From the NCBI GenBank assembly GCA_963693365.1, contig CAVNZM010000007.1, positions 729,979-793,978 on the forward strand: DNA of 64,000 nt, written 5' to 3'. Below, in pieces: positions 6,301 to 9,300 of this stretch. The stretch is from Amoebidium appalachense (Eukaryota > Protista > Ichthyosporea). Within the stretch, counting starts at the first letter, position 1, and each line of letters opens with the position of its first letter. Below the pieces are notes generated by a model that ran no database searches, had not been told where the DNA came from, and saw only the letters and a program-made list of their open reading frames with translations. The position numbers and the translations under genes are program-made.

Positions 6301-9300
6301 CCAGCCCCCCCCTCCCCCCCCCCCCCCCCCCTCCCCGGGAGGTCGAAACTCGGGTAGTGATGATTGGGCCTCCCTGAGGATGGGCTCTGCTCATGTGCAT
6401 ACTTTCTATGTGATTTGCAAATTTCTCCGTCGTGACTGTGTACTTGGTACTTGGTAACGCATCTTAACCCCCCTCCCCCCCTCACCCTCCCCCCAAATTT
6501 GGGTTTACATATGTTCCACTACTCTTTGTGTGTCTTGCTAAAAACATTCTAGCTTTGTGTTATTCTTCATTGAATTATTGTGATTTTTGCACTGTGTATT
6601 GCATTTCTAACCCCCCCCCCCCCCCTCAATAAGGATGGTTCTTACCCCAGTCACCCAACATTACAGCTGAAAGTCTATGCCTATTCATGCTCCCCCCTCC
6701 CCCTCCCTCCCCTCCCCAACCCCCCTCCCCCCGCCCCCTGCCCCCGCCGCACATCCACTCACACGTGCACCCATGCACCTACACACACGCACGCACACAC
6801 ACACACACACACCACACGTACACGCGCACACACACACACACACACACACACACACACACACACACACACACACACACACACACACACACACACACACACA
6901 CACACACACACACACACACAGGCCTGATGGGGTTCCGTCCCCTCACCGAGCTTTCTGGGTTCCTGTCGTCTGTGCCTGAGCTTCGTGCTTTGGTGGGGGA
7001 GGAGGCTGCATCTGCCCTCCAATCATTTGTGGCCAATAATCCTGAAAAGGCAAAGGCGGGGGGTAAATTATCATTTCTCGTTCACACACACACACACACA
7101 CACACACACACACACACACACACACACACACACACACCGTTACCTCTATAACACATTCCAACCTCCCCCCTCCCCTCCCACCCCACCCACCCATCCCTGC
7201 CATCTCTTTCTCTCCCCTACTTTCTTTCCCATCCCTTCCATGTCCTCTTTTTTCTGTCTTCCCCCTCCCCCTCGTAGATGACGTGCCCCCCCCCTGAGGA
7301 TGGGCTCTCTGCTTATTATGCATACTCTTTATGTATGGTTTGTACTCCGCATCGTGTTATCCGTTGTTCATGTGTACTTCGTACTTTATGACGCATTAAA
7401 CCCCCCCCCCCCCCCCCTGCCCCACCCACCCACCCATCAACCGACTCACCGACTTCCTCTCCATTCCTTTGTCGTCCACTTTTCTCAACTCGAATCTTTT
7501 CTGCCTTTTCCACTGCGTTTGCTTTTGAATTTGCTCTGCACTGTTTTTTCGCAATGAATTTTGCTCTTCACCACTTTTCCTTCTATTTTGTACTTAGCAC
7601 CACATTCTAGCCCCCTCCCGCTCCGCCCCGCCTCCCCGTCCTCCTCTATTTTCTTGTACCTATCACCACATTCTACCCCCCCCCCCCCCCCCCCCCCCCC
7701 CACCACCACCACCACCACCACCGCCCTCCTCCATTTTTCTACCTAGCACCGCATTTTTACTCCCCTCCCCCCCCCCCCCCCCCCCCCCCCCCCCCCCCGC
7801 CCCCCGCCCCCTTCCCGCCCACCCCCCTTCCGTTTTGAATTTTGCACCACATTCTAACCCACTCCTTCTCTCCCCGCCCCATTCCATTTTGTACTTGGCG
7901 CCACATTCTTAACGCCCTCCCCCCCCTCCCCCCAGGGTCGGACCCCACTGCGCGCAGCGTGCTGCAGGGAGTGTACCGGCAGCTGCTGTCTGCTGATAGG
8001 GGCCTTGTGACGTCAAACCTCACAAAGCTCATGGACAGGCTGGGCATTAATCCAGAGGTGTGTGTGTTTGTATTGTATGCACCACCACGGGCATAAACAC
8101 ACACACACATAGAAGGAGAGAGACCCTGGATGCACACACACACACACACACCTATATGCACACACACACACACACACACACACCTAGATGCACACGTACC
8201 CACGTATGCTCACACTTGACGACTAATAGTTAAATACAGACTATGCGCTGTCAGACTACCAAAACTTAGCCGCGGCCGCCTAAATCACTATGGCATGTGA
8301 CGTCACTCTGAGATATTTCCATCTATGGAAGAATCTCCGTGTGACGTCATTTAAGTTGAAAATTTCCCGGAAGTCTGTAGTCTAGCGGGGTATGTAGTCT
8401 GTATTGAACCATTAGCGGTCAAGCTCACACCCCACACGTACAGGGATCAGCCAACCAGCTCGCAGTGCGTCTGCACCGTGACTACCCCGGTGATGTAGGT
8501 GTGTTCTGTGCCTACGTGCTCAACTATGTGTCACTCAGTGAGGGCCAGGCCATGTTCATGGCCGCTAACGAGCCTCATGCCTACCTGCAGGGCGGTAGGA
8601 ATCCTTCCCTTCCCCCCTCTTCCCCCCCTCCCCCGCTCCCCCCTCCCCCCTCCTGCCTGCCTCCCTTTGCCTCCCCCACCCACATCCGCACACCTTTGAA
8701 CTATTTTCAAACTGTGCCTTTTTGTTTGAGGAGAAGGTGGAGAGTGGGGGAGGGGGGGGAGATAGGGGGCAGAACACTTGAGTTTGAAGGGGACCACAGG
8801 GGGGGAGGGGGGGGGGGGGGACGGCTCTCCAACGCAGTCTGAATCGGGTTATTCGGAATTTTTCCTGTTGCATCTATGCTTGGTAGAGTGAAGCTCCAAT
8901 CTTCTCCCCCCCCCCCCTCTCCTCGTCCCTCTCCCTCACACTCCCCCCGGCCCCCCACCCCCGCCTGTCCCTCTCTTCTTTCCCCTTCCCCTTCCATCCA
9001 CCATTCTATACACTATGAAGTCTTGCCATTTGATGGATGTCAGGTGTATTGGGTTGTCTTTTGAACATGGGAGAGAGGGGGGGGGGGGGGGGGGGGGATA
9101 GAGAGAGAGAGAGAGAGAGGGGGAGAGAGAGAGAGAGAGAGAGAGAGAGAGAGAAGAGACGGGTTTCCTGAAGACAATTAATGTGTTTGTAGAGGATAGT
9201 CCCCATGTTTCCCTCCTCGTTGGGAGCTCTGCCAAAATGAGTAAACACAATGCAACCAAAAAACAACAGGAAAGAGAAAGGCTCGAGAATGAGTTTTGCA

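What the first reader, a model, noticed from the sequence alone, without database searches (positions are those of the whole stretch)
6780..6921. A class of 3' splice sites with (CA)n in place of the polypyrimidine tract
Seen: roughly 15 of the ~42 modelled introns (manual count) have sense-strand (CA)n running into, or to within ~15 nt of, the acceptor AG: 267, 1462, 6182, 6921, 9791, 11150, 36883, 39154, 40981, 41628, 44115, 45112, 53681, 55007, 56661. Many have no U-rich tract for 50 to several hundred nt. No acceptor is abutted by (TG)n. Other introns in the same genes have ordinary ends (TACTAAC..pyrimidines..CAG at 55611-55639; TCTAAC at 58446). The flanking exons encode invariant catalytic motifs, so these sites must be used. 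Established: U2AF65 prefers U-rich tracts and hnRNP L binds CA repeats. Inference: a second mode of acceptor definition, either CA-binding-protein dependent or scanning from distant branch points across AG-free repeat.
Basis: partly seen in the sequence, partly recalled or inferred. Interest (0 to 1): 0.75.

Follow-up and report, generated by a model that had tools for sequence, protein, structure and literature searches.

The report
CA microsatellites abutting working splice acceptors
In this stretch of DNA from Amoebidium, a single-celled relative of animals, 15 of 33 transcript-confirmed introns end in CA repeats that run up to or near the splice AG, likely because microsatellites grew there and are tolerated by a spliceosome that would take the first AG after a displaced branch point.

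Summary
Window exons match transcriptome proteins labelled Amoebidium parasiticum at 420/420 and 309/309 residues, and a spliced contig fits the IF2mt exons. CA repeat fills at least 30% of the last 40 nt in 15 of 33 (4.5 expected; decoy AGs 39 of 788); TG does so in 0 of 33. 'In place of the polypyrimidine tract' overstates it: only 5 of 18 ordinary introns have a tract, while 12 of 18 have a YTRAY branch motif. Fish-type bridging to a 5' TG repeat is not supported (4 of 15 vs 3 of 18). Best reading (0.5): a branch-point-driven spliceosome tolerates an AG-free, unstructured CA microsatellite grown at the ACAG, and takes the first AG after a displaced branch point. Evidence for distal branch points is mixed and depends on the control. 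A CA-binding factor (0.2) or branching inside the repeat (0.15) remain open. Not found in print in the searches run. New variant of a known kind; interest 0.5.

The parts
6781..6921 (+). Focal CA tract running in phase into the acceptor CAG of MPI intron 6292-6921; AG-free zone 246 nt
6758..6762 (+). CTCAC, candidate (weak) branch motif, A at -161; not shown to be used
6026..6182 (+). Interrupted CA tract to MPI acceptor 6182; candidate TTGAC at 6059-6063
9708..9791 (+). Interrupted CA tract to MPI acceptor 9791; no YTNAY candidate in its AG-free zone
9583..9681 (+). Decoy: (CA)49 followed by G, 110 nt upstream of 9791, not used in the transcript-derived protein
11041..11150 (+). CTAAC (A at -107), short pyrimidine stretch, CA / C-run / CA, then TAG acceptor of MPI
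3951..4050 (+).
53534..53681 (+). CTGAT (A at -145), C-rich stretch, (CA)15 into DIM1 acceptor 53681
54913..55007 (+). CA tract into DIM1 acceptor 55007; this intron has a 69-nt TG tract 70 nt from its donor
56540..56661 (+). CA tract into DIM1 acceptor 56661; AG-free zone 321 nt
45112..45552 (-). Longest CA composite, to IF2mt acceptor 45112; AG-free zone 395 nt, no YTNAY candidate inside the scanning window
44115..44272 (-). CA tract with embedded CTAAC/CTGAC/CTCAC units, IF2mt acceptor 44115
41628..41769 (-). CA tract with three CTCAC, IF2mt acceptor 41628
40981..41065 (-). CA tract to IF2mt acceptor 40981
40324..40348 (-).
39154..39210 (-). CTAAC (A at -54) merging directly into (CA)26 and the acceptor: the whole branch-to-AG spacer is CA
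36883..36965 (-). CTGAC (A at -80) then CA tract into IF2mt acceptor 36883
266..392 (-). (CA)63 into a probable acceptor at 266 of a PAS-like gene; not confirmed by RNA
3217..12255 (+). Host gene: mannose-6-phosphate isomerase, 11 coding exons
36719..46249 (-). Host gene: mitochondrial-type initiation factor IF2, 15 3'-most exons (further 5' exons modelled only by eye)
52258..60249 (+). Host gene: DIM1 18S rRNA dimethyltransferase, 10 coding exons

Best explanation
These are used GT-AG acceptors preceded by CA microsatellites, which likely grew by slippage at the ACAG end of the intron and are tolerated because this spliceosome is likely branch-point-driven and would take the first AG downstream of a displaced branch point. 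Shown: the junctions, the CA polarity, the AG-free zones (median 113 vs 33 nt), the lack of a pyrimidine tract in most ordinary introns and their YTRAY motif. Predicted: the CA spacer is single-stranded. Inferred: seeding at the CAG; branching 50-160 nt or more upstream; a linear search across the repeat in step 2; and selection against the TG mirror, which would add G, pairing capacity and GU donor-like words where CA adds no AG.
For: Ordinary introns: YTRAY in 12 of 18 (4.0 expected, p 1e-5), pyrimidine tract in only 5 of 18, the trade-off described for fungi and protists in PMC3033335 (passages). CA class: CTRAY in the scanning window in 6 of 15 (2.3 expected, p 0.016); CTRAC at the 5' edge of the composite tract in 5 of 15 vs 1 of 42 other tracts (p 0.004, 30-nt merging); 39154 and 36883 show motif, then CA, then AG with almost nothing else. 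Seeding: 8 acceptors carry 8-47 in-phase CA units ending exactly in CAG, whereas 8 of 104 other perfect tracts end in G; 16 of 29 real CAGs vs 15 of 119 decoys have >=2 units; simple repeats make up about 35% of intron sequence. Last 60 nt predicted 27% paired vs 54%; weak folding near acceptors is favoured in fungi (PMC4574748, abstract). Distal branch points with AG-exclusion zones up to 400 nt and a search for the first AG are established (PMC1431707, passages). GUGUGU ranked worst of 4096 hexamers in one yeast reporter, an effect the authors ascribe to context (PMC10726166, passages).
Against: Against internal AGs that also have AG-free zones >=75 nt, branch motifs are not enriched (CTRAY 6 of 15 vs 12 of 48, p 0.21; all five patterns p 0.17-0.49). 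The 5'-edge test fails with 12-nt merging (3 of 15 vs 3 of 52, p 0.12), and YTRAY alone gives p 0.09; these tests were many and uncorrected. No YTNAY candidate exists for 9791, 45112 or 40324. CACAG among ordinary acceptors (4 of 15 vs 12 of 111 decoys) is only a weak seed signal. Donors do not show matching GT expansions (at most 7 units), which needs an extra selective assumption. In human, distal branch points go with skipped exons and slower splicing (PMC5378181, passages), yet here they would serve about 40% of housekeeping introns. n is 33 introns from 3 genes.
Confidence: 0.5

Rival explanations
1. The CA tract is an active acceptor signal read by a protein (an hnRNP L-like or YB-1-like factor, or a U2AF large subunit with changed specificity) that recruits U2 or U2AF1 to the adjacent CAG.
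For: Steep gradient towards the AG (CA cover 0.38 in the last 25 nt, 0.04-0.10 beyond 200 nt); exact abutment in 8 cases; three acceptors lack any branch motif candidate. hnRNP L binds CA repeats (PMC5959245, passages); YB-1 aids U2AF at weak tracts via CAUC/CACC (PMC3458536, search listing only).
Against: 18 of 33 acceptors work without CA and mostly without a pyrimidine tract; (CA)49-G at 9681 is not used although preceded by an 82-nt TC tract; 35 CA tracts lie elsewhere in the same introns; the paper read describes hnRNP L mainly as a repressor. The organism's splicing factors could not be examined (no genome held).
Confidence: 0.2
2. The repeat is tolerated filler, but branching happens at the normal distance inside it, using degenerate U2 pairing to CAC(A)C, TACAC or CTCAC variants; no long scan is needed.
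For: No upstream candidate for 9791, 45112, 40324; CTCAC/CTAAC variants sit inside the tracts at 44115 and 41628; CTCAC is the only candidate in two ordinary introns; U2 pairing is flexible in human (PMC5378181, passages).
Against: Pure tracts (6921, 56661, 39154, 36883, 41628) have no U in the last 40 nt, and U at -2 is the conserved position (established knowledge); ordinary introns keep a clear YTRAY; the decoy at 9681 should then be usable.
Confidence: 0.15
3. CA pairs with a TG/G-rich arm across the exon, at the start of the next intron, forming a stem with the exon in the loop that helps define it (or promotes circles).
For: A TG tract within 200 nt of the next donor follows 6 of 14 CA acceptors vs 1 of 16 others (p 0.03); rho 0.42, p 0.02; 7 of 14 fold with >=29 of the last ~58 nt paired to the next intron (no shuffle control).
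Against: Uncorrected, one of about eight tests; correlation with any repeat is as strong (rho 0.49), so it may reflect local repeat load; 7 of 14 have little or no partner; cross-exon pairing is described as inhibitory and avoided in zebrafish (PMC4691745).
Confidence: 0.07
4. Reverse-polarity version of the fish (AC)m-(GT)n introns: a 5' TG arm pairs with the 3' CA arm across the intron and replaces U2AF2.
For: Three introns (55007, 44115, 40324) fold more than half of their last 60 nt onto the first 200 nt.
Against: TG in the first 200 nt: 4 of 15 vs 3 of 18 (p 0.67); 10 of 15 have no TG tract >=12 nt anywhere; within-intron rho -0.04; CA ends are less paired than ordinary ends.
Confidence: 0.04
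5. Assembly artefact: repeats inflated or misplaced beside exons.
For: Very long homopolymers and repeats are error-prone (general knowledge); no DNA reads were available to check lengths.
Against: Exon sequence is exact against transcript-derived data up to each junction; an artefact would not favour the sense strand and the 3' end in genes on both strands; many tracts are interrupted and compound.
Confidence: 0.04

Closest known systems
Distant-branch-point introns with AG exclusion zones (Gooding et al. 2006, PMC1431707; Taggart et al. 2017, PMC5378181)
   Same: Long AG-free zone before the used AG (79-395 nt in the CA class); candidate branch motif towards its 5' end in about half.
   Different: There a minority class tied to alternative exons, with a U2AF2-bound pyrimidine tract beside the branch point; here about 40% of housekeeping introns, the zone is microsatellite, and branch-plus-tract is not enriched (6 of 15 vs 17 of 48).
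(AC)m-(GT)n structured introns of teleosts and lamprey (Lin et al. 2016, PMC4691745)
   Same: Dinucleotide repeat occupying the 3' end of constitutive introns where a pyrimidine tract would be.
   Different: Opposite polarity (CA, not GT, at the acceptor), no complementary arm at the 5' end, 3' end predicted unpaired, far more frequent in this sample (45% vs 0.09-2.29% of introns).
Fungal/protist-type 3' splice sites with weak pyrimidine tract and stronger branch site (Iwata and Gotoh 2011, PMC3033335)
   Same: Ordinary introns here: YTRAY mostly 16-46 nt from the AG, little pyrimidine enrichment.
   Different: The spacer between branch motif and AG is stretched several-fold by CA repeat in nearly half the introns.
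C-enriched intron ends of Chlamydomonas (Labadorf et al. 2010, PMC2830987)
   Same: A non-U composition where the pyrimidine tract would be; simple repeats enriched in constitutive introns.
   Different: C enrichment, not long (CA)n abutting the AG, in the passages read.
hnRNP L / CA-repeat splicing regulation in mammals (PMC5959245)
   Same: Same RNA motif next to splice sites.
   Different: Described mainly as repression, near 5' sites; here the CA-flanked acceptors are used in the only transcript form seen.

Membership tests
(AC)m-(GT)n bridged introns | AC at the 5' end and GT at the 3' end | tested here: not met
   CA is at the 3' end; TG at 0 of 33 acceptors
(AC)m-(GT)n bridged introns | Complementary repeats co-occur across the intron | tested here: not met
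   4 of 15 vs 3 of 18, p 0.67; rho -0.04
(AC)m-(GT)n bridged introns | Predicted hairpin joins the two intron ends | tested here: not met
   3 of 15 only; mean pairing lower than ordinary introns
(AC)m-(GT)n bridged introns | Splicing independent of U2AF2 | not testable with these tools
   needs depletion experiments
Distant-branch-point (AGEZ) introns | Extended AG exclusion zone | tested here: met
   median 113 vs 33 nt; partly automatic, since CA repeat holds no AG
Distant-branch-point (AGEZ) introns | Branch motif towards the 5' end of the zone | tested here: inconclusive
   p 0.016 and 0.004 in two tests, p 0.09-0.49 in others
Distant-branch-point (AGEZ) introns | Pyrimidine tract right after the distal branch point | tested here: inconclusive
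   6 of 15 vs 17 of 48 controls, p 0.49; mostly C-rich
Distant-branch-point (AGEZ) introns | Lariat mapped to the distal site | not testable with these tools
   only assembled contigs were available
U2-type GT-AG spliceosomal introns | GT donor, AG acceptor, removed from the transcript | tested here: met
   33 of 33
hnRNP L-dependent CA elements | CA-binding hnRNP L-type protein present and bound | not testable with these tools
   no genome held; protein searches used on host genes
Introner / transposon-derived intron family | Introns share sequence beyond simple repeats | tested here: not met
   masked all-vs-all blastn of 33 introns: 2 short hits, one the dispersed element

The most novel reading that the evidence does not exclude
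Amoebidium reads (CA)n, not a U-rich tract, as a positive 3' splice-site signal in a large share of its introns, through a CA-binding factor or an altered U2AF: a lineage next to animals that rewired acceptor recognition around a microsatellite.
Probability: 0.2. Interest if true: 0.8.

Novelty: new variant of a known kind. Interest (0 to 1): 0.5.

Why it matters
Nearly half of the sampled housekeeping introns splice with no U in, or few U near, the last 40 nt and with 80-400 nt of AG-free sequence. If branching is distal, this is a natural organism-wide test of step-2 AG scanning and of when the pyrimidine tract and U2AF2 became necessary on the way to animals. If a CA reader is involved, it is a new acceptor code. 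Even the neutral reading matters for annotation: pyrimidine-tract and branch-point predictors and repeat masking will misread these acceptors.

Tried and rejected
No whole genome is held, so no genome-wide test and no look at U2AF, SF1, hnRNP L or U2 snRNA. Acceptors 266 and 1462 have no RNA evidence either way. A search for this organism's own IF2 protein found nothing at a too strict cut-off and none among representatives. Metagenome scan with MPI gave 4 loci at 41-45% identity with no CA or TG runs, so no orthologous introns. Rfam: 0 matches in the window. Earlier findings of the scan: none. Rejected: fish-type intron bridging, Introner origin, assembly artefact (see rivals). A hammerhead reading of the dispersed element was considered by eye from recalled motif words and dropped: stems did not pair and Rfam had no hit. 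Introns of the PAS-like, Josephin and DPH3-like genes and the 5' IF2 introns (about 9) were left out of all counts because they were not transcript-confirmed. Papers read without bearing: PMC7314544, PMC6875170, PMC13746701, PMC5560861 (passages), PMC5677156 (abstract).

Full report
What the window is. Exons of two genes are identical to transcriptome-derived proteins that the collection labels EukProt Amoebidium parasiticum: MPI 420/420 and DIM1 309/309 residues. Amoebidium is an ichthyosporean opisthokont. The species of this assembly was not determined; a genome paper exists for A. appalachense, and the passages seen there mention intron-rich genes but nothing on intron ends (PMC11244446, 12 of 20 places shown). 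No whole genome was held, so everything below rests on this window.

Junctions. Each of the 10 MPI and 9 DIM1 junctions has one GT-AG solution that reproduces the protein. For the mitochondrial-type IF2 gene, a 2639-nt contig of run X1 and two contigs of X2, one sample, lie only on exons. Joints at repeats were dropped by the tool, so I checked record coordinates: summing modelled exon lengths reproduces the listed anchors, and the join is open for 542 codons. The loose end at 45114 is the end of the upstream exon. The sites at 266 (reader: 267) and 1462 join in an open frame with only a sub-threshold PAS_3 hint; they and about 7 other unconfirmed introns were left out of all counts.

Is the CA enrichment real? 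Yes. CA repeat covers at least 30%, 45% or 60% of the last 40 nt in 15, 12 or 11 of 33 introns, against 4.5, 3.5 and 2.8 expected from random positions in the same introns (p<=1e-5) and 39, 27 and 20 of 788 unused AGs. Cover falls from 0.38 in the last 25 nt to 0.04-0.10 beyond 200 nt. TG abuts none, but only about one was expected. Introns carry about twice as much CA as TG on the sense strand elsewhere (1316 vs 628 nt; 35 vs 17 tracts); 15 of 15 still exceeds that (p 0.003). Eight acceptors have 8-47 CA units in phase with the CAG, the other 25 have 0-3; only 8 of 104 other perfect tracts end in G.

Does CA replace a pyrimidine tract? Not in the sense of a required signal. Of 18 ordinary introns, 5 have a tract scoring 8 or more; the median equals that of decoy YAGs (p 0.10) and pyrimidine content is 0.59 vs 0.545. 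A U-rich tract lies within 40 nt in 5 of 18 ordinary and 1 of 15 CA introns. In contrast 12 of 18 ordinary introns have YTRAY with no intervening AG (4.0 expected, p 1e-5), mostly 16-46 nt from the end. That is the weak-tract, stronger-branch-site pattern reported for fungi and protists (PMC3033335, passages).

Where is the branch point in the CA class? AG-free zones have a median of 113 nt vs 33. In favour of displacement: CTRAY in the scanning window in 6 of 15 (2.3 expected, p 0.016); with CTCAC added after the fact, 11 of 15 (5.0 expected); CTRAC at the 5' edge of the composite tract in 5 of 15 vs 1 of 42 other tracts (p 0.004). At 39154 CTAAC merges straight into (CA)26 and the AG. Against: YTRAY 7 of 15 (p 0.09); no enrichment over internal AGs with equally long AG-free zones for any of five patterns (p 0.17-0.49); the edge test is not significant when tracts are merged over 12 nt (p 0.12-0.26); 9791, 45112 and 40324 have no YTNAY candidate. 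The verdict on this step is inconclusive. The mechanism itself, distal branching and a search for the first AG, is established in mammals (PMC1431707, passages; PMC5378181, passages).

RNA bridging. The nearest published case is the fish (AC)m-(GT)n class, where AC at the 5' end pairs with GT at the 3' end and U2AF2 is dispensable (PMC4691745, parts 1-4 of 7 read; supplements searched by five terms, file 1 not available). Here polarity is reversed and the partner is missing: TG in the first 200 nt in 4 of 15 vs 3 of 18, rho -0.04. The last 60 nt are predicted 27% paired vs 54% in ordinary introns, 5 of 15 wholly unpaired, 3 of 15 paired to the 5' end. An unexpected hint runs across exons: 6 of 14 vs 1 of 16 are followed by TG in the next intron (p 0.03; rho 0.42), but any repeat correlates as well (rho 0.49) and the test is uncorrected.

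Protein reader. Not testable here. Sequence arguments cut both ways: the exact abutment and three motif-less cases fit a positive signal; the unused (CA)49-G at 9681, 35 non-terminal tracts and 18 CA-free acceptors show CA is neither sufficient nor necessary.

Best reading. Simple repeats make up about 26% of the window and 35% of introns. The CA of the acceptor CAG is a slippage seed; expansion upstream adds no AG, no G and no self-pairing, so a spliceosome that does not need a U-rich tract would tolerate it and reach the same AG. The GT mirror at donors stays short (at most 7 units), plausibly because it creates shifted donors; that step is inference. I give this 0.5, a CA-binding factor 0.2, branching inside the repeat 0.15, pairing models 0.11 together, artefact 0.04.

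Novelty. Searches of the held library (background 56, 68) found no description of CA-abutted acceptors in Amoebidium or other unicellular holozoans; the library lacks most subscription papers, and supplements of the genome paper were not read. The closest parallels are fish GT ends and Chlamydomonas C-rich ends (PMC2830987, section 5 and passages). It is a new variant of known 3' splice-site types, striking in frequency, with the mechanism open and directly testable by lariat mapping. Limits: 33 introns, 3 genes, one transcript form each, repeat lengths unchecked.

Noticed in passing
window 6372(+), 7292(+), 18684(-), 46435(-), 46733(-), 55995(+): Six copies (0.02 expected) of a ~150-nt dispersed element ending in a C-run (alignment), all in the sense orientation of the host gene's intron; no Rfam match. 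SINE-like, unclassified.
   Followed up: partly
window 1972-2095 (+): By eye, an inverted copy of the acceptor at 1462 with a CA tract and about 45 nt of its exon, upstream in the same gene; on the sense strand it could pair with the acceptor.
   Followed up: no
donors 6292, 8595, 9947, 55102, 46085, 42147, 41501, 39074: C-runs start within a few bases of the donor: C6 in the first 60 nt in 10 of 33 introns, not tied to the CA class (6 of 15 vs 4 of 18).
   Followed up: partly
exons after 53681, 56661, 45112, 44115, 40981, 11150: CA/C-rich end upstream and TG/G-rich start downstream could loop out the exon; p 0.03 uncorrected.
   Followed up: partly
window 9583-9681: Long TC tract, (CA)49 and AG form a textbook-looking acceptor that is not used; the used one lies 110 nt downstream with no branch motif candidate.
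   Followed up: partly
window 18060-20620 (-): Josephin-domain deubiquitinase exons (Pfam E 5.7e-8); its intron ends are TC-rich, by eye.
   Followed up: partly
window 27680-29068 (+): Apparently intronless reading frame with cysteine/histidine spacing like CCCH zinc fingers near its end (by eye, recalled motif; not scanned).
   Followed up: no
window 30600-33650 (-): Two tandem paralogous, intron-poor genes that look like BTB/KCTD proteins (by eye, recalled; not scanned).
   Followed up: no
window 62580-63820 (-): Small gene resembling DPH3 (recalled motif; not scanned).
   Followed up: no
window 14800-17520 and 21250-23400: Intergenic or intronic blocks where C-run/CA segments alternate with TG/G-run segments, giving large low-complexity inverted arrangements (by eye).
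   Followed up: no
all 33 donors: Donors are degenerate: 22 different hexamers, commonest GTGTGT (5).
   Followed up: no
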